This document shows positions 34 through 54,213 of a DNA stretch of 54,311 nt, piece after piece. The position numbers and the translations under genes were made by a program. The notes under the pieces were generated by a model. It was not told the DNA's origin, searched no databases, and worked only from the letters and a program-made list of their open reading frames with translations. Location: the IMG/VR virus record IMGVR_UViG_3300014501_000541, positions 1 to 54,311 of that record. One strand, written 5' to 3'. The stretch comes from a virus. Taxonomy: Duplodnaviria > Caudoviricetes. The stretch's first letter is position 1; every line of letters starts with the position of its first letter.

Positions 34-123
34 GGAGAGGTGCGTGAGTGGTTGAAACGATCCGCCTCGAAAGCGGACATACCTTAACGGGTATCGTGGG
101 TTCAAATCCCACCCTCTCCGCCA
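34..123 (+). tRNA. tRNA-Ser (anticodon CGA), integration target
   Basis: Acceptor GGAGAGG/CCTCTCC, discriminator G + CCA, anticodon arm TCCGC-CTCGAAA-GCGGA, long variable arm, T-arm GTGGG-TTCAAAT-CCCAC. Confidence 0.97.
99..123 (+). repeat. attL core GGTTCAAATCCCACCCTCTCCGCCA
   Basis: Identical to 54189-54213; 3' end of tRNA-Ser. Confidence 0.95.
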
Positions 124-197: not shown

Positions 198-1271
198 ATG
201 CTCACGATTTACCGCAGACATCGCACGACTTGCCCGCACCATTCCCGGCAATACAAGAAGTGTTTTTGCCCGATCTGGGTGCAAGGGCTCCTTGAGGGGA
301 AGCCGGTGCGCCGGTCGCTCGATCTTACGAACTGGGAAGCGGCGAACCGCAAGATCCACGAGCTTGAAGTCCACGGCGATAAGCAAGCGGTTTCGGTAAA
401 GGAAGCCTGCGAGAAATTCAAGGCTGATTGCAAAGCTCGGAATCTGAGCGCCGCGACGATAAAAAAATATAAGTATGTTTTGGGCGAGCTGGACGAAAAG
501 TTCGGGTCGCTTCCGGTGCGGAGCGTTAGCGTCGATGATTTGAGGAGTCTCCGGAGTCGTTGGACGTTCGCCGGTTCTACGACACGGAAACGGGTCGAAT
601 ATTTGCGGGCTTTTTTTGCGTTCTGCGTGGGCGCGGGCTGGATGCCCTTGAATCCGGGAAAACCTCTGAAGCCGCCTAAGCAGGCGCAAGCACCAACACT
701 TCCCTTCTCCGACGCCGAGTGGAAAGATATCGTGACGGCGCTCGGCCTTTACGGCGACATCCATAAACAAAGTCCGCCGGCGATTTGTAAGCAGTTGCGG
801 GCGCTCGTTTTTGTCATGCGCTATTCCGGGCTGCGGATATCGGACGCGGTTTCCCTGAAGCGAGATCGCGTCACGAAAACGAAAGACGGCGGCCGGTTAT
901 TTCTTTACCAGGCAAAGACCGGGCAGCCGGTATGGATTCCGATCGGAAAAGAAGTCATGGACGCGCTCGCGGATTGCGCTGAGGATGGTGCCAATTATTT
1001 CTGGTGCGGCACGGGCACGTTACAGACGACGCAAACGAAGTGGCAGGCGCGGCTCAAGAAAGTGTTTACGATCGCCGGAATTCCGGACGGGCATTCGCAT
1101 CGGTTCCGCGACACGTTCGCGGTTGGCCTGCTTTCAAAGGGTGTGAGTTTGGAGACAGTTTCGACATTACTCGGGCATCAAAATCTCGGGGTCACACAAA
1201 AACATTATTCGCCGTGGGTAAAAAGTCGCCAGGAAGCGCTTGAAGAGGCGGTCAGGAAGACGTGGAAGTAG
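198..1271 (+). CDS. int: Tyrosine recombinase (phage integrase)
   Basis: YSGLRISD (R), HRFR (HxxR), LLGH, HY catalytic motifs; adjacent to attL. Confidence 0.95.
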   Translation: MLTIYRRHRTTCPHHSRQYKKCFCPIWVQGLLEGKPVRRSLDLTNWEAANRKIHELEVHGDKQAVSVKEACEKFKADCKARNLSAATIKKYKYVLGELDEKFGSLPVRSVSVDDLRSLRSRWTFAGSTTRKRVEYLRAFFAFCVGAGWMPLNPGKPLKPPKQAQAPTLPFSDAEWKDIVTALGLYGDIHKQSPPAICKQLRALVFVMRYSGLRISDAVSLKRDRVTKTKDGGRLFLYQAKTGQPVWIPIGKEVMDALADCAEDGANYFWCGTGTLQTTQTKWQARLKKVFTIAGIPDGHSHRFRDTFAVGLLSKGVSLETVSTLLGHQNLGVTQKHYSPWVKSRQEALEEAVRKTWK

Positions 1272-1586: not shown

Positions 1587-2084
1587 ATGCGGCGCTACCT
1601 ATTCCTCGCACCGTTAATACTTCTCTTGAGCGCCTGCGATATTCCGGATCGGGTTAGCAAACTAGAAAAAGAAACCAAGGAGATGCAAACGGAGCGGGAT
1701 CGCGTAAGCGATTATGATTTGCAGGCAAAATGCTCGAAGGATGCCCGAGCTTGGTTTAATGAGAACTGGTCACGGGATAAAGACACGGTTTTACTGGACT
1801 TCACTAACCACTACAACAAAAAAGGCAATAAATGTTTCATCCTAGTTGAGTTTCACTACAACAATAATTTTGTAGGGCCGGGCGGGACGGGCTGGACGAA
1901 TCACATGAGCCTGTGGGACATTTACGAAAACAGTAAATACGGCGAGCTTGTCGAAAACCACTATACATACTTCAAGCCGACAGTGACCACATCGAACGAA
2001 CTAGTGACTTGCGATATGTTGGGTCAGAAATGCAAATCAATGGACGAATTTAATGGTTTTATACGGCCTTATTTGAATGGTTGA
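1587..2084 (+). CDS. Lipoprotein (possible superinfection-exclusion moron)
   Basis: MRRYLFLAPLILLLSAC lipobox; TG-c-TACACT -10 just upstream of ATG 1587. Confidence 0.75.
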   Translation: MRRYLFLAPLILLLSACDIPDRVSKLEKETKEMQTERDRVSDYDLQAKCSKDARAWFNENWSRDKDTVLLDFTNHYNKKGNKCFILVEFHYNNNFVGPGGTGWTNHMSLWDIYENSKYGELVENHYTYFKPTVTTSNELVTCDMLGQKCKSMDEFNGFIRPYLNG

Positions 2085-2289
2085 ATGAACGCCGAAAATT
2101 CTAAGAACCCTTCTCTCTTCTTTAAGCTCATAAACAGAGAGTGGGTGAATTCAGGTCTGGATTTTTCCTGCTTCGGTTTCCAGTTTCAGTCCCTCTTGAT
2201 GGTTGTAGATCGGCACGCGCCGAATCGGTGAGAAGCTTTCCGTTGATAATTTCAGGGATAGAGATTTTGGACGGGGCGAAGCATTATTG

Positions 2290-2432
2290 ATAATTCTCTA
2301 GAAGTGGGGTGCGAGTAAGCCAACTCGCCCTGGCCGAAGCCTGAGGATTTGAACCTCTGATTTGTCGGGCGTATATATCCACCCGTCTACGACTGCCATC
2401 GTAGATTATTTACCCCGTTTCTAAAGAACTAT
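2290..2432 (-). ncRNA. Stem-bounded structured RNA cassette C (with tRNA T-arm mimic)
   Basis: Arms 2412-2432 / 2290-2310 pair with G-U; five internal hairpins. Confidence 0.6.
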
Positions 2433-2464
2433 TTCACCTCGCGGCGGCCCGATTCCAAAATGTC

Positions 2465-2622
2465 GGCAATTCTCTGAGAACTTGGGTCGTATGGTATGAG
2501 ATACGAGATGCGCTTATTCCATATTTGCTTTATGCATCAGACGCAGGTAATGAATGGATGCTCCCGCGATTACTGGCTTGTACTTTGCCTATCACGCCAA
2601 CCCAAGTTTTCAAAGAACTGCC
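2465..2622 (-). ncRNA. Stem-bounded structured RNA cassette B
   Basis: Arms 2600-2622 / 2465-2487 form a 23-bp stem; three internal helices. Confidence 0.6.
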
Positions 2623-2650
2623 TGACTATCCTTCCCCGTACTCCCGTTCC

Positions 2651-2840
2651 TGCAATTCTCTGAAAGCTGAGAGAAACCCGTGCTCGTTTGGGCGCGCCAC
2701 CAGTTACCAGCAGAAGTCATAAAACTTCTACACCGAGCCTACGCTTTACTTTGCAGCATCACACCGCATACCCGCGTCAGGAGGAACGGGAGGTTTCTTT
2801 TAGAGTGATTAGCTCTATTCTCAGCTTTCAAAGAACTGCA
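2651..2840 (-). ncRNA. Stem-bounded structured RNA cassette A
   Basis: Arms 2819-2840 / 2651-2672 form a fully paired 22-bp stem with 2 G-U; branched interior. Confidence 0.6.
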
Positions 2841-3043
2841 TACGGCCTAGCGGCGGCGGAAAGAGAAGCACCATACCTCCCATCTCCCTACGACAAACTG
2901 ATAAAAACTAGGCAGGATTTTAAAAGCAAAGCTCCCGACCCGTAAAAGAACTCATTTCGGAGGTGCCCGTTCGGGCCAGGTCGAGAGCTTTGCTCTCCAC
3001 CTTCTTTTCTTTTAACAAGAGGTGAAGTCCTTACTTCAAATTA

Positions 3044-3080
3044 AACGTACCATATTGTCATTTTGTTTCAATGTGGATAA
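3044..3080 (-). promoter_or_regulatory. Putative promoter for the RNA cassette array, with adjacent DnaA box
   Basis: TTATCCACA directly followed by TTGAAA-N16-TACGTT (TG extension). Confidence 0.45.
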
Positions 3081-3085
3081 CTTTT

Positions 3086-3322
3086 CTACGGATTATGCGG
3101 GCTTTTTAGTTTGAAAAGGCTAGAGGCTTGTATGAGGGCGCGGACATCCCTGAAGGCTTCGCGATGCACTTCGATCTGTTGCAAGATGGCAATTTTCTGA
3201 TCGCAGAGTTTTATGGCCTTGCGAAAGAGCCGCGCGCCGACCTTTAGCCCAAGGTCTTCAAGGATGGCAGCCCGGATAGCATAGTCTTGGGCTTCTTGCC
3301 GTTCTTCTTCGATTACGCGCAC
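3086..3322 (-). CDS. Hypothetical protein
   Basis: GTG start with AGGAGG RBS and TATAAT upstream; shorter than the track ORF. Confidence 0.55.
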   Translation of the reverse strand: MRVIEEERQEAQDYAIRAAILEDLGLKVGARLFRKAIKLCDQKIAILQQIEVHREAFRDVRALIQASSLFKLKSPHNP

Positions 3323-3356
3323 GGGAACCTCCTGACGTTGGGAGGAAATTATACCC

Positions 3357-3833
3357 CTATTCTTCCCAGCAATTTTCGCTCGCCGTCCATGGCGCGGTTC
3401 CATACTTGTTAAACAGATATTCTCCAAAAGCGATATTTCCCGAAGCGGTTGCTAGGTCATCGCCCATTTTCGCCGCAAGCGAACCCCATACATAGGTGTT
3501 GATCTGCAAGATTCCTTCATCCCTTTTTATCCGTTCCTTGGTAACAGGGTTTTCTCCCCACAGAATCGAGCCATCGGGCATAAATTGGGTGGGAGTGCCG
3601 GAAACTGATCCGGTTGTTTCGCAGGCAGCGATACGCTCCAAAATGGGGTGTTCGGCAAAGATGTGGTCGGCAACAGAGCTGGATGCCTGTTTCTCGGGCG
3701 ATTCTTGCGTTATAGGCGTACTTTGCGCCTGAGCTGTACCAATGACGTTATAGACCGCCGGACGGGCTAAAATCGGGGTAAAAACGAGGAGAAAGAGAAA
3801 GATGAGAAAGAAAACATAAAATCTTTTAATAAT
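3357..3833 (-). CDS. Membrane-anchored lytic transglycosylase (SLT/lysozyme-like), probable ATT start
   Basis: IAACE catalytic Glu, GILQIN, GTAPW..S..CW motifs; frame open upstream through a hydrophobic N-terminal helix. Confidence 0.75.
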   Translation of the reverse strand: MIKRFYVFFLIFLFLLVFTPILARPAVYNVIGTAQAQSTPITQESPEKQASSSVADHIFAEHPILERIAACETTGSVSGTPTQFMPDGSILWGENPVTKERIKRDEGILQINTYVWGSLAAKMGDDLATASGNIAFGEYLFNKYGTAPWTASENCWEE

Positions 3834-18133: not shown

Positions 18134-18505
18134 TGCGGTGAATTCTTTGAGGTAGGGGAGCCGAGATGATTAGTTTATTTTGACTTCTTACCGGACAACT
18201 TTTCCGTTGTCTCGCTGCCTTGCGACCGTGCTTCTCTCAACTTTTCTAGGAACTCCCAAGTTTCCCGATATTCTGATTCCCAGATAAGCGGTGTAGAGGG
18301 ATCGTTGAATGGTTCCCATAGGAATTGGCGAACTAAACTCTTGACCGCCACTTCCTGCTTTTCGGAGAATCCTAACGACTCGACTAGGGCTAACATTTTT
18401 CCTTCAACCTGTTTGATGTCGTGATTCTGCACGACGTACTGACAACTCATTTCGTTGCTCATTTTTGACTTGACTCGACATCCCCTATTTCAAAGAACTA
18501 CCGCA
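18134..18505 (-). repeat. Imperfect ~30-bp inverted repeat (cassette D stem)
   Basis: TGCGGTAGTTCTTTGAAATAGGGGATGTCGAG pairs with CTCGGCTCCCCTACCTCAAAGAATTCACCGCA. Confidence 0.8.
18175..18462 (-). CDS. Hypothetical protein enclosed by long-range inverted repeat
   Basis: 95-aa ATG ORF between arms 18134-18165 and 18474-18505. Confidence 0.7.
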   Translation of the reverse strand: MSNEMSCQYVVQNHDIKQVEGKMLALVESLGFSEKQEVAVKSLVRQFLWEPFNDPSTPLIWESEYRETWEFLEKLREARSQGSETTEKLSGKKSK

Positions 18506-18569
18506 TCGAGGTTTTCCCTCGCTTCTTGGCTCTTACCTCACCGGAAGAGCCAAGGGACGAAGGTTCGAA

Positions 18570-19028
18570 CTAGGTGTTCGAAGTTGCCGAATCGACGGGT
18601 TTCTGCTGTGCAGGTCCGCCAAGGATGATTTCGGCAAAGCCGAGAATCGCAGGCGAGCTGCCGCCGGTGAATGACGGGGTAATGACCGCCCGAAGGTACT
18701 GGTGCCTATTAAGGTTGAGGCCTTCGATGCGGGCGACGTTCTCCGCTGCTGCAGACTCGCAGTTCAACGTGAACCCGATCACCGTGCCGGTGTTATCGAG
18801 TGCGTTCGTCCAACCGCTGGTACCCGTGGTGCTCTCTTGGAGCGTGACGACGAGCGTTGCGGCCGACGGGCTGCCGGATGTGGCCGCTCCGTAGGCATGG
18901 ATCGCAGCGTCGGTGTAACCCGACGTATTGATCGAGGAGCCGTCCACAGCGGTTGAGCCGCTGAACGACTGCGGGGCGAGGCTTACGCCTCCGACGATGA
19001 GGACATCATCATAAATACTTCCGCGCAT
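18570..19028 (-). CDS. Head decoration/cement protein
   Basis: Follows capsid; V.LQES, YLRAV motifs. Confidence 0.7.
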   Translation of the reverse strand: MRGSIYDDVLIVGGVSLAPQSFSGSTAVDGSSINTSGYTDAAIHAYGAATSGSPSAATLVVTLQESTTGTSGWTNALDNTGTVIGFTLNCESAAAENVARIEGLNLNRHQYLRAVITPSFTGGSSPAILGFAEIILGGPAQQKPVDSATSNT

Positions 19029-23263: not shown

Positions 23264-24265
23264 TTATAAGAAGATGCACCTATCAGCGACGACGTTTTGC
23301 GCGATGACACCGCAGGTATACACGGGGACGGTAAGAGACGCGGTCGATGTTCCGAGCGCATTCTGTGAAGTAAGGGTGAAGGTCTGTGTGGCAGATAGAG
23401 ATATGCTCGTGCTCGCGGTACCCGTCGCAACCGAGCCGACCCCGCTTATCGTGTCCGATGAATCCCCCGTCACGTTCCATGAAAGTTTTACGCTGCCGCC
23501 GAAGCAGAGAAACGAGGACGGCGTTGCGGTGAAGGAGTTGATGACGGGCACGGCGGGCGCCGCTTCAAAGCCAACGATACCCGCATAGTGGTTACAGGTT
23601 CCGCTGTCGGTTCCCGTGTCTTGAACATTCGTCTGAATAGTTGAAACGACTTGGTAGCTGTACATCGTTCCCCCTCCGTTTGCGCCATCCCAACCGCTCG
23701 CGGGATTGAACGTATAGCCGTTTGTCCAGGAACCGCTTGGGACGACGGCGCAATTCACGCCGTTGTAAATGCCGTACACATCTCCCACGATAAGTTCGGT
23801 TGCTTGTGATGTCGTGATGGGACTCGAAGCCCAGGGCGTTGAGGATGGCCCCGTAGGGCTGGAAGCGGTGTCGAGGGGACTGGTGGCGATGCCTGTCCAA
23901 TGCGTTGCGGTCACAGCTCCAAGATGCGCCGTTGTTTCTTTCACATTGACACTGGTAATTCCTGATGGCGCGTTGGCGAGATACCATAGTTCCATGAACT
24001 GTGAGCCGGTAATTCTGGTCGTGTATTCGTTCACATACGTATCGTTCAGGTTGTCGGTGACGGTTGAAGAATTGGAACCTGCGTCTGCAACAAAAACGAG
24101 AACCAATTCCCCCGACGTTGTTGGCGTATGAAAAGTCGAGGTGGAGTTTCCGTTATTGGCGTTCGCGAGAGTAGTCGTAGCGACTTCGATCTGGGTAGGC
24201 ATTGCATAGGCTGGCAACGCAAAGAAGAATGAAAGCCCTATAAGGATGAGGAGGTACTTTTTCAT
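23264..24265 (-). CDS. Exported beta-rich protein
   Basis: Sec signal MKKYLLILIGLSFFFALPAYA; C-terminal Ig-like PVINSF.ATP..LSW. Confidence 0.75.
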   Translation of the reverse strand: MKKYLLILIGLSFFFALPAYAMPTQIEVATTTLANANNGNSTSTFHTPTTSGELVLVFVADAGSNSSTVTDNLNDTYVNEYTTRITGSQFMELWYLANAPSGITSVNVKETTAHLGAVTATHWTGIATSPLDTASSPTGPSSTPWASSPITTSQATELIVGDVYGIYNGVNCAVVPSGSWTNGYTFNPASGWDGANGGGTMYSYQVVSTIQTNVQDTGTDSGTCNHYAGIVGFEAAPAVPVINSFTATPSSFLCFGGSVKLSWNVTGDSSDTISGVGSVATGTASTSISLSATQTFTLTSQNALGTSTASLTVPVYTCGVIAQNVVADRCIFL

Positions 24266-27200
24266 TATGGGGTCAGTAAGAATGTCGCCACGGTTGAGGT
24301 GATGGAGTTGCTTGCTTGTGCCGACGCTGTGCCGTACCAGAAATCAATAGAGTTATTGATGGTCGTGTTAATGGTTTGCGCGGCATAAACCGATGAGGGG
24401 AAAACCCACGAGTCTTGCGTTCCGACCGTGCTCGTAAAGTACTTGATATCACACGCTGGATAGAACGTGCCGTTGGTTCCCACGGTTGCGATGGTCGCAT
24501 AACATTGGGCGCTAATCGTTCCCGTAGAACTCACGAGAGGAGCCTCGGCATTGGTAGCAAAGGTAAGACCAGCGAACTTGAAATACCACGTGATGTTATC
24601 GGCCGTACCCGGTTTTGCATAAATCCCTTGAAGGTTCATGGAAATCTCGGAACCTGGATTCAGGGTATTCGCGGGTATGGTTGTCGTGCCTACTCCTGCG
24701 CCGATAAGACTGCTGGAAGCAGAAGCGTCGTTGATATTTACGGGCGTTGTCATGTTGAAGAATGAACCGCCAAAGTTGAGATTGAAAGTACCGCCGTTCG
24801 GATAGACATCGACTTGACCCGTCGAAGCGACGGTAAGGAGAGGGCTTCCTGAAGCATTTTCGGTGATGAGAGGAAATTGTGGAACGGTTGAAGTAGAACC
24901 TACCGTCACCGTGTTTCCTGAAACCGTAATCGGGGCATTCGTAATAGAGTTGGTACCGGAGAACATGGATACGGTGCCGGAGGTCACGGGCGTTGTCGAA
25001 GAAACCCCGCTGCCTCCACCTCCTCCGCCTGATCCGCACGGCAAGCCTGCGTCGGTTAACGTATTTGCATCAGACCATTTCGCGCAGTCATTCGGAACGC
25101 CATTCCCGCCGCCTAACGCTATGACGCCGGTTTCATTTGGTACGGTGGTTGTTACGTTCCCTGTTAGCTGGGAAGTGTCAAAACTATCAAACGGCCCGCT
25201 CCCGCCATTCACGCTATCGAAGAAAATGCCATTCGTATCAGCGCCGCTTCCCTCGCCCGATGCACCATCGCCAATCAGAATAGAACCTCCCGTGCCGGTG
25301 TCGAAGCCGAGCTGTATGCCATAAGGTTCGAGTATCCAAAATGGTTCACCGCCCACGTTGTTGTCTTCAGCGGTCATGTAGCCGGTGGTGGCTAAAATGT
25401 ACGTGCTCGTATTTTCGAGGGCGACGACGCCTTTCGATGCCCCTTTCCCTACATACAAACCTGTTCCAAAGCTTCCAATCGGAACCCATTGCAACGTATC
25501 GCTCGCAGACAACGAACTGCTCGTATTGAAAAGGGCTATATCGGTTGACGTTCCCGAGCCGGAGATACCACCCCCACCACCGCATGAGCCGGCCGATGCT
25601 GCGTTCACGATGCCAGAGGAAGCGAGCGTTATCGTAGCGCACGGATAGGTTCCCGATGCGACGCCGGAATTGATAAGGAAAAGCGTGGTCGATGTTCCGG
25701 TGGTGGTTGAGGTCTCGTTGCCAGATCCGTTGATGGTGAACCCCGTGCCCGATGTCCCGTTTATTTTTGTCGAAGTCGCATAGGGGTTGCCACTCACATC
25801 TACCGCATTGCCGAGATGCCATGCGCCGCTTTGGTAATAGAACGTGCCGGTCGTGACGGCGGGAAGCGACTTGCCCTCAAGCCCTTGTACGGTGCTCGTG
25901 ACGTTGATGGAGGTCGTGCCGGTCGCGGTGCCGGTCGCATCTTGGGAAAGCGATAAGGTAATTAATTGGTTCGCCGCCAAACAGCTCACCGTGAGAGAAA
26001 CGGTGCCAGTCGAGTTCGCAGCGCTCACGCACCCATTGCCGGCAAAAGACGTGACGCCGGTGTTTTGTATGGATATGGAGTTCGAACTCGTCGTGACAGC
26101 GATGCCTGAGGATGCGTTCGCGGTCGTGAAACCGGAACCGCCGGACGGAGTGCTCGTTGCTATAAGATTTCCTGAACCGTCGGTCGCCACAAATGAATTG
26201 GGCGTAATGGTGGTGTTGATGGTTCCCTTGAAGGTAGACGTTTGGTTGACCGTAAGCGTGGTTGAAGCAGTCGCGGCCGTTGCGAATGTAATGCCGATAC
26301 CTGAGCCAGAATTGCCGATCGTCGTCGAACCATTCTGCACCGCTCGAAGGACATCGCCGCCATTGTTTGCGTCCGCAATGTGAAAAGTATTTGATCCGTC
26401 GTTCAGCATGCCGAATTCCCACTCATCGGTGCCAGCGGTCGAAAATACTTGCGTTCCATAATTTCCCGTGCCACCGCGACTGATACGCATGGTGCAGGTG
26501 CCAGGACAAGCGACATAGAAATTGCCATTTTGGGTTGAGGTTCCGATAGAGAAGTTACCGAGGACATTGGCATTTGATGACACGCTTTCGGTGCCCGTGA
26601 TTGTCGTATTGCCCGTAAGAGTGAAGGTAGCGCCAAGCCACGTTCCGGTCGCGTTCACGGGCGTTATTTGGAACAAAAGATGATGCTGGATGGTCGTGCC
26701 TGCGCCTTCATTCGACATCTCGATAACATAGGGATAGAGAAAAGCGTCCGCTGTGCTTGATGCCCCAGTCGCCGTTTCGAACCATCCCGTGCCGTTGAAT
26801 CCTGGATAGCTCTCTTGGTTCAGATCGTCAAACGTCCGAGTGCCATCGGGATAGAGCGTGCTCATAGACCAGTCGCACTCGGACTGGTTGCTCGTGCTTG
26901 CGTTGTTCGGACAGTTTTGTTCGACGATATTGAATTCCTGCGTTGTGCTCGCGCCGGAGCCTGGCGTGTTGCCGATGATGGGGCCGATATCCAGAAATCC
27001 ATTTGCATCAACCGAAACCGGATAGACGATAGTTCCCGATGGCGTGACGTTCATGAGCGCCAAGGTGCTCGATACCGTTTCGTTTGTGGTAGTCACATTG
27101 CCAGTATTCGTGATACCTCCGGGGCCGGCGACAACCGTGGACGTTGCCGAGAGCTGGTTACTGCCACTCCAGAATGGGAAATCGTTGGTGACGGTCGTAG

Positions 27201-28851
27201 TCGCAGAACTCACATTACCGCTTCCCGATGGCGTGCCGCACGCAACCGTGCCGGTCGCGGAGAAGCCGGTCACGAACTGGCCGCCGGAGCAGGATGACCC
27301 TATATAAGAAGATAGGTTGCCGTTCGCGTCATAGAGGCCAAGGGAACTTGTGGCGAGGTCGATCTTCCATGCTCCGCCGGAATATTCAAGCGTTCCTGTC
27401 GCCAAGGCTGGTAAGGCTTTGCCATTGAGGCCGATCACGGTCACGGTGTCCGTGATCGAAGTCGCTCCTGAGGCAGTTCCCGTAGCATCGCCATTCATGA
27501 TGAACGTGATCGTTTGGTTTCCGGAGATGCACGTGACGGCGAGCGAAACGGTTCCTGTGGAATTGGCAGCCGTGACGCAGCCTTGTCCGGTGAACGATGT
27601 CACGCCGGTATTGGTGTAAGTGCTTGTGCTGTTCGCGGCTGTTGAAGTCGTTGTGATTGAAATGCCCGCACCTGCGACATTATTGTGAGAAGTCGATGTC
27701 GCGCCATTGATTGAAGTTACGGCGGCCGTGAGCCAACTCGGGTTATAAATCACGCCGAGAGAGCTGGATGTTATGGTCACGGCCCCGTTCGATCCATTCA
27801 CCGATGTGACGCCGTTCGCGCACGCGATGGTGCCGGTTGCTGATATGCCCGTTGCAAATTGGTTCGCTCCGCACGGGTTTGAGCCTGCGAAAGCGAGTAC
27901 GACTCCCGATGTGTTCGTCACGAGCAAGGAGTTCGTGGTCGAGGCGAGCGTCGTCGTGCCATTGGCGGTCAAGCCCAGGCTAAACGTTTCAAGAGCGTTC
28001 CAAATGGCCGCATAGGCCGTATTGAGAGTCGCCGTGGCACTGATGCCGACTTGGACGACAGTTACGCCATTTGCCCCGTAGACGTTCGTCGAACTCGCGC
28101 CACCCGAAGGCACTGCGCACGTTATCGTTCCCGTTGGCGATATCGTTTGCACGAAATTGCTCCCGCTACAGCCCGTTCCGAGGTTCAGCGTGTAGGTTGT
28201 TGTCGTGTTCGTGGTTGAGGTCGCTTGCGTGAGCGATAGGCCTGCTCCGGCTGAGTACGTGTAGGTTGGAATACTCACCGAGCCGCAGCTCACGATGCCT
28301 CCCGAAGTGATCTGGTTCACGAACTGACTTGCGCTGCAGTTTTGCGTCGCGCCATTGTTGAGCGACACCGATACGGTCGTCGTGGCTCCCGATACCGTGC
28401 TGGTTGCGCCGGTGCCGGCCGCGATGTTGTAGTTCGTGGATTTGTTGCCGTTGATGGTCGGCCACACGACGCCGAGCGAGCTCGACGTGATAGTTATGAC
28501 GCCGCTCAATCCGTTCACGCTATTCACAATCTGTGTGCTGCTGCTCAAGAAGTCGGATGGATGATAGAGCTGCCACGTTCCGGCCCAATCTCCCGTATTC
28601 GTCGCGACGCCGGTTCCCGTGATCGTGATGCCTCCGCTTGATGTTGAAACTTGGCACGTGCCGGCGCAGAGGATATAGGCCGGCGTGTATGTTCCGCTTC
28701 CGTTGCCGATGAGAACCTGGCCGGATAGCGGCGCGGTAACGGTTCCCGTTCCACCTTGCACCGGATAATACGGTGCTGCATGAACCGTCAAAACCTGCCC
28801 CACGATGGCGAGGGCGAAGATTGAAGCAATGGCGAGATACAACTTCTTCAT
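24265..28851 (-). CDS. Large exported fibre/adhesin-like protein (1528 aa)
   Basis: Sec signal, T/S/G-rich, VTSVNG motifs, Cys-pair repeats, ~85-aa internal duplication. Confidence 0.8.
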   Translation of the reverse strand: MKKLYLAIASIFALAIVGQVLTVHAAPYYPVQGGTGTVTAPLSGQVLIGNGSGTYTPAYILCAGTCQVSTSSGGITITGTGVATNTGDWAGTWQLYHPSDFLSSSTQIVNSVNGLSGVITITSSSLGVVWPTINGNKSTNYNIAAGTGATSTVSGATTTVSVSLNNGATQNCSASQFVNQITSGGIVSCGSVSIPTYTYSAGAGLSLTQATSTTNTTTTYTLNLGTGCSGSNFVQTISPTGTITCAVPSGGASSTNVYGANGVTVVQVGISATATLNTAYAAIWNALETFSLGLTANGTTTLASTTNSLLVTNTSGVVLAFAGSNPCGANQFATGISATGTIACANGVTSVNGSNGAVTITSSSLGVIYNPSWLTAAVTSINGATSTSHNNVAGAGISITTTSTAANSTSTYTNTGVTSFTGQGCVTAANSTGTVSLAVTCISGNQTITFIMNGDATGTASGATSITDTVTVIGLNGKALPALATGTLEYSGGAWKIDLATSSLGLYDANGNLSSYIGSSCSGGQFVTGFSATGTVACGTPSGSGNVSSATTTVTNDFPFWSGSNQLSATSTVVAGPGGITNTGNVTTTNETVSSTLALMNVTPSGTIVYPVSVDANGFLDIGPIIGNTPGSGASTTQEFNIVEQNCPNNASTSNQSECDWSMSTLYPDGTRTFDDLNQESYPGFNGTGWFETATGASSTADAFLYPYVIEMSNEGAGTTIQHHLLFQITPVNATGTWLGATFTLTGNTTITGTESVSSNANVLGNFSIGTSTQNGNFYVACPGTCTMRISRGGTGNYGTQVFSTAGTDEWEFGMLNDGSNTFHIADANNGGDVLRAVQNGSTTIGNSGSGIGITFATAATASTTLTVNQTSTFKGTINTTITPNSFVATDGSGNLIATSTPSGGSGFTTANASSGIAVTTSSNSISIQNTGVTSFAGNGCVSAANSTGTVSLTVSCLAANQLITLSLSQDATGTATGTTSINVTSTVQGLEGKSLPAVTTGTFYYQSGAWHLGNAVDVSGNPYATSTKINGTSGTGFTINGSGNETSTTTGTSTTLFLINSGVASGTYPCATITLASSGIVNAASAGSCGGGGGISGSGTSTDIALFNTSSSLSASDTLQWVPIGSFGTGLYVGKGASKGVVALENTSTYILATTGYMTAEDNNVGGEPFWILEPYGIQLGFDTGTGGSILIGDGASGEGSGADTNGIFFDSVNGGSGPFDSFDTSQLTGNVTTTVPNETGVIALGGGNGVPNDCAKWSDANTLTDAGLPCGSGGGGGGSGVSSTTPVTSGTVSMFSGTNSITNAPITVSGNTVTVGSTSTVPQFPLITENASGSPLLTVASTGQVDVYPNGGTFNLNFGGSFFNMTTPVNINDASASSSLIGAGVGTTTIPANTLNPGSEISMNLQGIYAKPGTADNITWYFKFAGLTFATNAEAPLVSSTGTISAQCYATIATVGTNGTFYPACDIKYFTSTVGTQDSWVFPSSVYAAQTINTTINNSIDFWYGTASAQASNSITSTVATFLLTP

Positions 28852-54188: not shown

Positions 54189-54213
54189 GGTTCAAATCCC
54201 ACCCTCTCCGCCA
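54189..54213 (+). repeat. attR core (duplicated tRNA 3' end)
   Basis: 25-bp exact match to 99-123. Confidence 0.95.

What the first reader, a model, noticed from the sequence alone, without database searches (positions are those of the whole stretch)
2290..2840. Tandem array of three non-coding RNA cassettes, each closed by a stem with the same conserved motif
Seen: on the minus strand three consecutive units have 5' arms UGCAGUUCUUUGAAAGCUGAGA (2840-2819), GGCAGUUCUUUGAAAACUUGGGU (2622-2600) and AUAGUUCUUUAGAAACGGGGU (2432-2412). Each pairs over 21-23 bp with its own 3' arm (2672-2651, 2487-2465, 2310-2290), all ending AGAGAAUU. The two G-U wobbles sit at the same positions in all three, and flanking pairs co-vary per unit, so the pairing works as RNA on this strand. 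The 100-146 nt interiors are unrelated to each other but each is highly structured, and there is no credible ORF. Knowledge: GUUCUUUGAAA resembles the rrn boxA / RNase III processing-stalk sequence of some bacteria. Inference: a polycistronic small-RNA locus whose units are cut out (possibly circularised) at a common stalk, i.e. a modular phage RNA-cargo system I do not recognise as described.
Basis: partly seen in the sequence, partly recalled or inferred. Interest (0 to 1): 0.9.

Follow-up and report, generated by a model that had tools for sequence, protein, structure and literature searches.

The report
Phage RNA cassettes with rRNA-style stalks
A virus of a peat-soil bacterium carries three small non-coding units, each closed by a stem that contains the signal its likely host uses when making ribosomal RNA, so the virus may borrow that machinery to make RNAs whose purpose is still unknown.

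Summary
The three minus-strand cassettes are real (2651-2840, 2465-2622, 2290-2432). Each closes with a 21-23 bp stalk sharing the core GUUCUUUGA / UCAGAGAAU, with two G.U wobbles. Cassette-specific inner pairs covary: across 12 cassettes, 93% of cells pair against 71% in shuffles. No Rfam family, tRNA or conserved ORF matches.

One claim fails: only cargo 3 folds better than shuffles. The strong whole-unit scores come from the stalks.

The window is a complete tRNA-Ser prophage from peat or permafrost. Its tRNA is 94-99% identical to Acidobacteriota genomes. Their rrn operons carry boxA as GGUCUUUGACAAC in the leader and G(U/A)UCUUUGAAAA before 5S. A boxA-like GAUAUUUGACAAC sits inside the 23S leader-trailer helix, also with U.G wobbles. 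The cassettes therefore copy the host's rRNA stalk design.

A third identical boxA, with no partner arm, lies in the phage late operon.

Rare relatives carry unrelated cargos: L121 and L140 (four cassettes), plus L237, L445, L531 and L474, which were picked partly for pairing.

Best reading (0.45): Nus-dependent transcription plus RNase III stalks release diverse small RNAs.

Transcription, cleavage and cargo function are not shown, and nothing supports circularisation.

The parts
2651..2840 (-). Cassette 1. 5' arm 2819-2840 (contains the boxA-like GUUCUUUGAAA at 2826-2836), interior 2673-2818 (146 nt), 3' arm 2651-2672.
   Evidence: Inverted repeat I2. The MFE fold has the closing stalk, z -5.77. 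The interior alone scores z +0.28.
2465..2622 (-). Cassette 2. 5' arm 2600-2622 (boxA-like at 2608-2618), interior 2488-2599 (112 nt), 3' arm 2465-2487.
   Evidence: Inverted repeat I1. Fold z -4.70. The interior alone scores z +0.36.
2290..2432 (-). Cassette 3. 5' arm 2412-2432 (variant core GUUCUUUAGAA with one extra A-U pair), interior 2311-2411 with five hairpins, one of them T-arm-like, 3' arm 2290-2310.
   Evidence: Fold z -7.53 with 35% ensemble frequency. The interior alone scores z -3.87. An 11-nt identity to the T arm of the tRNA-Ser at 99-109.
2923..3057 (-). Conserved leader upstream of the array. It holds a small hairpin at 3024-3037 and a long hairpin (arms 2925-2940 and 2979-2994) followed by a U-run.
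   Evidence: 100 of 144 aligned columns are identical to L121, with changes on both sides of stem pairs in the long hairpin. The interiors and the downstream flank do not align (I3). Its role as terminator or leader helix is inferred.
18488..18499 (-). Free-standing AGUUCUUUGAAA (boxA-like) with no partner arm. It lies in the intergenic gap of the structural-gene operon and is preceded by a hairpin at 18528-18551.
   Evidence: The general pattern G-N-UCUUU-(G/A)-A-(A/C)-A occurs 3 times in the window, all on the minus strand and all intergenic. Mononucleotide shuffles give a mean of 0.36 and a maximum of 2 in 200.
34..123 (+). tRNA-Ser(CGA). Its last 25 nt (99-123) are repeated at 54189-54213, giving attL and attR, so the window holds a whole prophage.
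   Evidence: ARAGORN and Rfam. The repeat was read.
198..1271 (+). Tyrosine integrase, convergent with the array.
   Evidence: Pfam Phage_integrase, E 1.4e-17. 75% identical to the integrase of L121.

Best explanation
The array is a phage copy of the host's ribosomal-RNA production design.

Proposed mechanism (all steps inferred):
1. The 5' arm of each cassette is a boxA, the RNA site that NusB and NusE(S10) bind to convert RNA polymerase into the termination-resistant complex used on rrn operons.
2. That complex lets an untranslated 550-nt transcript escape Rho.
3. As proposed for rRNA, it also holds the 5' arm near the RNA exit until the complementary 3' arm emerges, which helps the long-range helix to form.
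4. The finished 21-32 bp stalk is a leader-trailer helix of the kind RNase III cuts. Cleavage would release each interior as a separate small RNA capped by a short stem.

The interiors are interchangeable payloads of unknown function, and one is tRNA-like in part.

Shown here: the stalks, their covariation, the strand, the match to boxA elements of the likely host clade, the same boxA-inside-the-helix layout in that clade's 23S stalk, and the presence of RNase III and NusB genes in those genomes.

Not shown: Nus binding, antitermination, cleavage, and release of stable RNAs.
For: Stalks
- All three window units, and all 12 cassettes folded, close with the stalk in the MFE structure.
- On alignment A3 (12 cassettes, 22 pairs), 93.1% of cells pair against 71.2 +/- 2.0% in shuffles (0 of 500 reach it). 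Versions slid by 1-3 columns give 38-50%. 15 of 22 pairs change on both sides. The covariation score is 0.600 against 0.187.
- Among 11 cassettes, a cassette's own inner arms give a mean of 9.7 pairs of 12. Cross-cassette arms give 5.15 +/- 1.65 (n = 110).
- The strand is supported by 31 G.U against 5 A.C cells in the stalks.

Host
- The stretch is held in peat and permafrost metagenome runs.
- The window's tRNA-Ser is 99% identical in G339, 96% in G193 and 94% in G162. For G162 the match includes upstream flank. These came from 401 genomes of the phylum of an Acidobacteria MAG.

boxA
- The rrn operons of G339 and G193 carry GGUCUUUGACAAC in the leader and GAUCUUUGAAAAA or AGUUCUUUGAAAAU in the 23S-5S spacer.
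- They also carry GAUAUUUGACAAC inside the 5' strand of the 23S leader-trailer helix. There it pairs with the trailer through U.G wobbles in the U-run.
- 6 of the 27 genomes analysed from the order of G193 have such an element within 450 nt upstream of 5S. Five of the six had 92-96% identical tRNA-Ser matches; the sixth, G183, matched at 79%.
- The published gamma-proteobacterial consensus is GYTCTTTAANA (PMC5725501, passages read).

Other support
- A third exact AGUUCUUUGAAA sits on the operon strand in an intergenic gap of the late genes.
- 3 of 3 host-like genomes encode RNase III and NusB.
- No protein gene is shared beside the cassettes in the seven loci compared, apart from the integrase region of L121. 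That fits reliance on host factors.
- The tethering model and the need for a helix longer than 17 bp come from PMC10250234 (passages read).
Against: - No transcription, end or cleavage data exist. The RNA run gave only four short low-depth contigs, which could be DNA carry-over.
- boxA must be single-stranded to bind NusB and NusE. Here it ends up in a strong helix.
- The 3' core is as invariant as the 5' core, and the U6.G wobble is kept in 11 of 12 cassettes. boxA alone does not explain that. It hints that the helix itself, or the 3' arm, is recognised.
- The 9-mer is almost unchanged across phage contigs, while host rrn boxAs vary at position 2.
- Interiors 1 and 2 are no more structured than shuffles, and no interior is conserved between loci. 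There is therefore no positive evidence that the interiors are functional RNAs.
- Only 6 of 27 sampled genomes of the order have the pre-5S element.
- Host assignment rests on tRNA identity alone.
- Four of the 12 cassettes in A3 (L237, L445, L531, L474) were picked partly because they pair, so their contribution to the covariation is partly circular.
Confidence: 0.45

Rival explanations
1. The cassettes are cis-acting antitermination or regulatory elements, working like nut sites. In this reading the boxA and its stalk are the functional part. The interior is a loosely constrained spacer, and no stable small RNA is the product.
For: - Interiors 1 and 2 fold no better than shuffles, and no interior is conserved.
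- A partner-less boxA with an upstream hairpin lies inside the late operon.
- In relatives the cassette lies upstream of genes on the same strand. L531 has it in a divergent gap before a replication-gene operon (Cas4-like nuclease, UDG/dUTPase, PolB). L445 has it before two ORFs. L237 has it between a holin-like ORF and a transglycosylase. L140 has it before structural genes.
Against: - In the window and in L121 the array is the last thing on its strand. It faces a convergent ORF and the integrase, so there is nothing downstream to antiterminate.
- Three or four units in tandem, each with its own 3' arm and cassette-specific inner pairs, are more than a nut-like site needs.
- No boxB-type hairpin is conserved next to the boxA.
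- Interior 3 is clearly structured.
Confidence: 0.2
2. The conserved double-stranded core, with its U.G wobble, is the recognition site of some other factor, and the likeness to boxA is a coincidence or secondary. Candidates are a different nuclease, a dsRNA-binding protein, or a defence or counter-defence protein.
For: - Both strands of the core are nearly invariant, and the wobble is fixed in 11 of 12 cassettes.
- The core is more constant across contigs than boxA is across host-like genomes.
Against: - No candidate protein gene is shared beside the cassettes.
- The same 12-mer also occurs without a partner arm in the late operon.
- The host clade itself puts boxA inside a wobble-containing stalk.
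Confidence: 0.2
3. The units are DNA-level elements: miniature inverted-repeat transposable elements, integron-like attC sites, or other recombination or replication hairpins.
For: They are inverted repeats with conserved termini around variable interiors, they lie next to an integrase, and cassette content differs between related phages.
Against: - G.U exceeds A.C by 31 to 5, so pairing works on one strand only.
- Inner arms covary with unrelated sequences, unlike protein-recognised terminal repeats.
- No flanking target duplications are visible (read).
- Interiors are unrelated, unlike copies of a mobile element.
- GTTCTTT does not fit the attC core GTTRRRY (consensus recalled, not from a call).
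- The integrase sits at a tRNA att site as in ordinary prophages.
- The one-strand bias does not by itself exclude single-stranded DNA hairpins.
Confidence: 0.05

Closest known systems
Bacterial rrn operon leader-trailer helices with boxA (rrnTAC antitermination and RNase III processing stalks)
   Same: - A boxA-type sequence lies on the 5' side.
- A long-range helix of more than 20 bp encloses the product.
- Several such units sit in tandem on one transcript.
- In the likely host clade the boxA-like element lies inside the 23S helix with U.G wobbles, as it does in the cassettes.
   Different: - The enclosed RNAs are 100-146 nt, unrelated to rRNA or tRNA and to one another.
- The units are phage-borne.
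- boxA and its complement form the outer part of every stalk, with an almost fixed 9-bp core.
Lambdoid phage nut sites (boxA plus boxB, N protein, host Nus factors)
   Same: A phage uses a host-type boxA on its own transcripts. A partner-less boxA with an upstream hairpin lies in the late operon.
   Different: - No conserved boxB next to boxA in the cassettes.
- No N-like protein was identified.
- The boxA is paired to a distant 3' arm.
- The array lies at the end of its strand in the window.
boxA upstream of CRISPR arrays and of suhB (Nus factors acting outside rRNA)
   Same: boxA serves long untranslated or special transcripts outside rrn. For suhB I read passages of PMC5725501. The CRISPR-array case is recalled; my search only listed related titles.
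   Different: Those cases have one boxA at the 5' end and no stalk. Here every unit has its own boxA, built into a helix.
Phage T7 RNase III sites and the phage T4 stable-RNA cluster (both recalled, not from a call)
   Same: Phage polycistronic transcripts are cut by host RNases into discrete RNAs.
   Different: T7 sites are local hairpins between mRNAs. T4 units are tRNAs and two small RNAs without boxA stalks.

Membership tests
rrn-type boxA (NusB-NusE binding site) | Sequence fits the boxA consensus and the boxA elements of the host's own rrn operons | tested here: met
   GUUCUUUGAAA compared with the gamma-proteobacterial GYTCTTTAANA (PMC5725501, passages). Host-like rrn operons carry GGUCUUUGACAAC, GAUCUUUGAAAAA and AGUUCUUUGAAAAU. 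The host is inferred from tRNA identity only.
rrn-type boxA (NusB-NusE binding site) | Binds NusB-NusE and confers Rho-resistant transcription | not testable with these tools
   Needs binding and read-through assays. NusB genes are present in 3 of 3 host-like genomes.
rRNA-type leader-trailer helix (RNase III processing stalk) | Long-range helix of about 20 bp or more closing the product, kept by covariation | tested here: met
   Stalks of 21-32 bp. 93.1% of cells paired, 15 of 22 pairs with changes on both sides, 0 of 500 shuffles as high.
rRNA-type leader-trailer helix (RNase III processing stalk) | Cut by RNase III in the helix | not testable with these tools
   RNase III genes are present in 3 of 3 host-like genomes. 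No end data were available.
rRNA-type leader-trailer helix (RNase III processing stalk) | Encloses an rRNA or tRNA | tested here: not met
   No Rfam or ARAGORN match in any cassette. It works like a processing stalk but is not part of an rrn operon.
Lambdoid nut site | boxB hairpin at a fixed short distance from boxA, and an N-type protein | tested here: not met
   The sequences after boxA differ between cassettes. No shared neighbouring protein. N-like proteins were not searched for specifically.
Integron attC site | Core sites RYYYAAC and GTTRRRY (recalled) with an IntI integrase | tested here: not met
   GTTCTTT does not fit GTTRRRY. The integrase lies at a tRNA att site with a 25-nt direct repeat. 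IntI-specific features were not tested.
MITE or other terminal-inverted-repeat element | Copies with similar interiors and flanking target duplications | tested here: not met
   Interiors are unrelated. No duplications are visible at the ends. Pairing is biased to one strand.
Any described RNA family (Rfam 15), including Y RNA/YrlA, 5S, tRNA and Acidobacteria motifs | Match to a covariance model | tested here: not met
   Nothing at gathering score. In the array itself nothing at E up to 10; the only hit in 2000-3200 was a weak ohsC-like match in the leader (E 0.45). Nothing at E up to 0.5 in six related loci.
CRISPR array | Direct repeats of 25-40 nt separating spacers of similar length | tested here: not met
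   The repeats are inverted, arm to arm, around interiors of 101-146 nt.

The most novel reading that the evidence does not exclude
Phages of soil bacteria carry a modular RNA-cargo system. A portable stalk contains the host's own boxA, and any sequence placed inside it is transcribed by the rRNA-type termination-resistant polymerase, folded with its help, and cut out by RNase III as a stem-capped small RNA. Cassettes are swapped between phages and supply diverse payloads, for example tRNA-like decoys or regulators of host or defence functions.
Probability: 0.3. Interest if true: 0.8.

Novelty: new variant of a known kind. Interest (0 to 1): 0.66.

Why it matters
If the reading holds, the Nus/boxA complex and the leader-trailer helix are not reserved for ribosomal RNA and a few regulatory sites. 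A phage would be reusing them as a general device for producing non-coding RNA.

That would give:
- a natural, compact 'expression and excision' module for small RNAs;
- a handle on how long-range helices form during transcription;
- a way into the unknown RNA payloads of soil phages, whose Acidobacteriota hosts are hard to culture.

It also shows that some Acidobacteriota place boxA inside the 23S stalk and carry an extra boxA before 5S.

Tried and rejected
Similarity and family searches
- BLAST of 2200-3100 against the phage collection gave no match.
- BLAST of the array and leader against three host-like genomes gave only 20-41 nt hits at E 0.02-0.8.
- Short-word BLAST of interiors, spacers and leader against the rest of the window and two rrn loci gave nothing better than a 14-nt match (E 0.023), apart from the 11-nt T-arm identity. 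This gives no evidence for antisense targets.
- Rfam and ARAGORN found nothing in any cassette.
- The promoter and terminator scan of 1900-3500 stayed at shuffle level.

Collection scans
- The 14-mer scan returned 120 loci, none with a partner arm.
- The leader 19-mer scan found only the L121 contig.
- The genome-contig scan returned 89 loci and 91 core pairs. The best had 7 of 10 inner pairs, so all are chance.
- Three further viral scans returned 17, 23 and 79 stretches. I examined 108 new loci with 109 core pairs. The best had 7 of 10, so there are no new members.

Candidates dropped
- The L196 group (L196, L201, L209, L213, L222) lies inside a glycosyltransferase ORF.
- The L497 group (9 loci) is repetitive, ORF-poor DNA with many copies of the motif on both strands.
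- L448 lies inside a 535-aa ORF on the other strand.
- L465/L456 (variant 3' core, 260 nt) and L537/L498 are left undecided.

RNA and read evidence
- Run X7 holds contigs at 1825-2077, 2414-2598, 3099-3328 and 3547-3697 at depth 2-4.4. Contigs cannot show strand, ends or level, and DNA carry-over is possible. I draw nothing from the parts without cover.
- The DNA runs showed no variants. Run X4 lacked cover of 2613-3117 and had one loose end at 2249, which I could not interpret.

Other
- Circularisation: nothing could be tested.
- Paper supplements were closed. Supplementary Table 2 of PMC5725501, a list of boxA sequences, may bear on the consensus.
- Three literature searches listed no description of phage RNA cassettes with boxA stalks. 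This is an absence in those searches only.

Full report
What is there.

On the minus strand of 2290-2840 lie three consecutive units: 2840-2651, 2622-2465 and 2432-2290. The two longest inverted repeats in the region are the arms of units 1 and 2, at 22 and 23 nt. The arms of unit 3 form 14 bp, a 2x2 internal loop and 5 more pairs. Each whole unit folds with the closing stalk in its minimum-energy structure. Z-scores are -5.8, -4.7 and -7.5, and none of 200 shuffles folds as well.

The shared core is 5' GUUCUUUGA paired with UCAGAGAAU. It has wobbles at G1.U and U6.G. Unit 3 carries one extra A-U pair.

There is no tRNA in the region and no Rfam match in the array itself, even at E up to 10. 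The only hit in 2000-3200 was a weak ohsC-like match in the leader, E 0.45. No minus-strand ORF of 40 aa or more lies in the region. The four plus-strand ORFs of 49-85 aa that I tested have no PHROG match, and none is shared with the related locus L121.

With the arms removed, interiors 1 and 2 fold no better than dinucleotide shuffles (z +0.28 and +0.36). Only interior 3 is clearly structured (z -3.87).

Setting.

The window is a whole prophage.
- A tRNA-Ser(CGA) lies at 34-123.
- Its last 25 nt are repeated at 54189-54213.
- A tyrosine integrase follows the tRNA.
- Terminase, portal, major head, tape-measure and tail genes run on the minus strand.

The array is the last feature on that strand. 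It faces a convergent lipoprotein-like ORF and the integrase. The record is a single virus contig. The stretch is held in peat and permafrost metagenome runs.

Relatives.

L121 was found through its integrase (75% identity) before any pairing filter was applied. At the same place it has one cassette with the same core but different inner arms. Its leader aligns to window 2923-3057, with 100 of 144 columns identical. Stem pairs of a long hairpin change on both sides. None of the three window interiors, nor the downstream flank, aligns to it.

L140 is an unrelated contig. It has four cassettes within 1.1 kb. One has the core variant GUUAUUUGA / UCAAAGAAU.

Single cassettes lie in four other loci:
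- L237, between a holin-like ORF and a transglycosylase;
- L445, before two ORFs;
- L531, in a divergent gap before replication genes;
- L474.

The family is rare. The viral scans added nothing beyond L140 and the L121 contig. The scan of 185,579 species genomes gave only chance matches. Several pattern hits were rejected as coding or repetitive DNA and are listed under Tried and rejected.

No interior matches any other, apart from one 13-nt word. None matches an Rfam model.

Is the stalk an RNA structure?

On an alignment of 12 cassettes whose arms align without gaps, the 22 stalk pairs give these figures:
- 93.1% of cells form standard pairs, against 71.2 +/- 2.0% when partners are shuffled (0 of 500 reach it);
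- sliding the partner by 1-3 columns gives 38-50%;
- 15 of 22 pairs show changes on both sides.

Among 11 cassettes, a cassette's own inner arms pair far better (mean 9.7 of 12) than arms taken from different cassettes (5.15 +/- 1.65, n = 110). G.U cells outnumber A.C cells 31 to 5, which fixes the strand.

One caveat applies. L237, L445, L531 and L474 were chosen from pattern hits partly because they pair. The unselected evidence is the three window units, L121, and the neighbours within the L140 array.

What is the core?

The window's tRNA-Ser is 99% identical in G339, 96% in G193 and 94% in G162. For G162 the match includes upstream flank. These were the best among 401 genomes of the phylum of an Acidobacteria MAG. 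That fits the peat source.

I read the rrn operons of G339 and G193. They show:
- a leader element GGUCUUUGACAAC about 235 nt before 16S;
- a further element in the long 23S-5S spacer, GAUCUUUGAAAAA in G339 and AGUUCUUUGAAAAU in G193;
- a boxA-like GAUAUUUGACAAC upstream of 23S.

The G193 spacer element is identical over 13 nt to the arm of cassette 2. The 23S-upstream element lies inside the outer part of the 23S leader-trailer helix. It pairs with the trailer through two U.G wobbles in the U-run.

In a sample of the order of G193, 6 of the 27 genomes analysed have G(C/A/U)UCUUUGA(A/C)A within 450 nt before 5S. Five of the six had 92-96% identical tRNA-Ser matches; the sixth, G183, matched at 79%.

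The published gamma-proteobacterial boxA consensus is GYTCTTTAANA (PMC5725501, passages read).

So the 5' arm is a boxA of the likely host clade. The layout of boxA in the outer 5' strand of a long-range helix, with wobbles, also occurs in that clade's own 23S stalk.

Inside the phage, a third exact AGUUCUUUGAAA lies without a partner arm, after a hairpin, in an intergenic gap of the late operon. The general boxA pattern occurs three times in the window. All three are on the operon strand and intergenic, against 0.36 expected.

The three host-like genomes each encode RNase III and NusB.

How it most likely works.

From established knowledge of rrn transcription (PMC10250234, passages read), boxA is necessary and sufficient to assemble the antitermination complex. 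A leader-trailer helix longer than 17 bp is essential for 16S maturation. The tethering of boxA to NusB is proposed to hold the leader near the exit channel until the trailer emerges. RNase III cuts in that helix.

Applied here, each cassette's boxA would load or reload the Nus complex. That would protect the untranslated array from Rho and help its own stalk to form. RNase III would then free the interior. All of these steps are inferred.

What argues against it.
- No expression data exist.
- boxA ends up paired.
- The equal conservation of the 3' core and of the U.G wobble suggests the helix itself may be recognised.
- There is no positive sign that interiors 1 and 2 are functional RNAs.

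The main rival is that the stalk with boxA is a cis-acting, nut-like element and the interior is filler. That reading fits the placement in L531, L445, L237 and L140. It does not fit the window or L121, where nothing lies downstream on the strand.

DNA-level readings (MITE, attC) fail on strand bias, covariation and unrelated interiors.

Novelty.

Three full-text searches listed no description of phage RNA cassettes closed by boxA-bearing stalks. No Rfam family matches. The components are textbook and the combination is not. I rate it a new variant of a known kind, of real interest to RNA and phage biologists, but resting on sequence evidence alone.

Noticed in passing
window 18488-18551 (-): A partner-less AGUUCUUUGAAA, preceded by a 7-bp hairpin, lies in the gap between two structural-operon ORFs (18570-19028 and 18175-18462). 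It looks like a nut-like or rrn-leader-like site inside the late operon.
   Followed up: partly
window 2923-3057 (-) and L121 2417-2548 (-): A conserved leader sits before the array. It has an invariant 5-bp hairpin with a 4-nt loop, and a 16-bp hairpin followed by a U-run. The long hairpin keeps its pairing through changes on both sides between the two phages. It could be a terminator that only modified polymerase passes.
   Followed up: partly
window 2343-2357 (-) compared with 99-109 (+): The T-arm-like hairpin of interior 3 shares 11 identical bases with the T arm of the tRNA-Ser that serves as the att site. ARAGORN calls no tRNA in the cassette.
   Followed up: partly
window 2437-2448 and 2846-2857 (+ coordinates): A 12-nt word (GCCGCCGC, then U or G, then AGG, read on the minus strand) recurs about 5-15 nt upstream of the 5' arms of cassettes 1 and 3, but not of cassette 2 (family D7).
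   Followed up: no
L331 about 3420-3590 and L332 (reverse strand), tRNA-23S spacer: In two Acidobacteriota genomes the spacer between the tRNAs and 23S reads, by eye, as one or two related ORFs of about 55-60 codons for a small hydrophobic protein. These would be protein genes inside an rrn operon.
   Followed up: no
L332 321-439 (-) and G193:C3:681897-682012: G193 has two further 5S-like copies (38 and 75 bits) downstream of the true 5S, separated by small ORFs. G162 and G151 also show a second weak 5S match nearby.
   Followed up: no
window 2249 and 2613-3117, run X4: One peat run holds cassettes 3 and 2 at 99% or more. It showed no contig over cassette 1 and the leader, and it has a contig that departs from the window at 2249. 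This may be a variant with other cassette content, but low depth prevents a conclusion.
   Followed up: no
window 24265-28851 (-): A 1528-aa ORF lies among the head and packaging genes and has no PHROG match.
   Followed up: no
L140 3694-4179 (+): Between cassettes 3 and 4 of L140 lie about 480 nt with two GTG-start ORFs (81 and 74 aa) and no stalk. This could be a small gene or a different kind of insert within the array.
   Followed up: no
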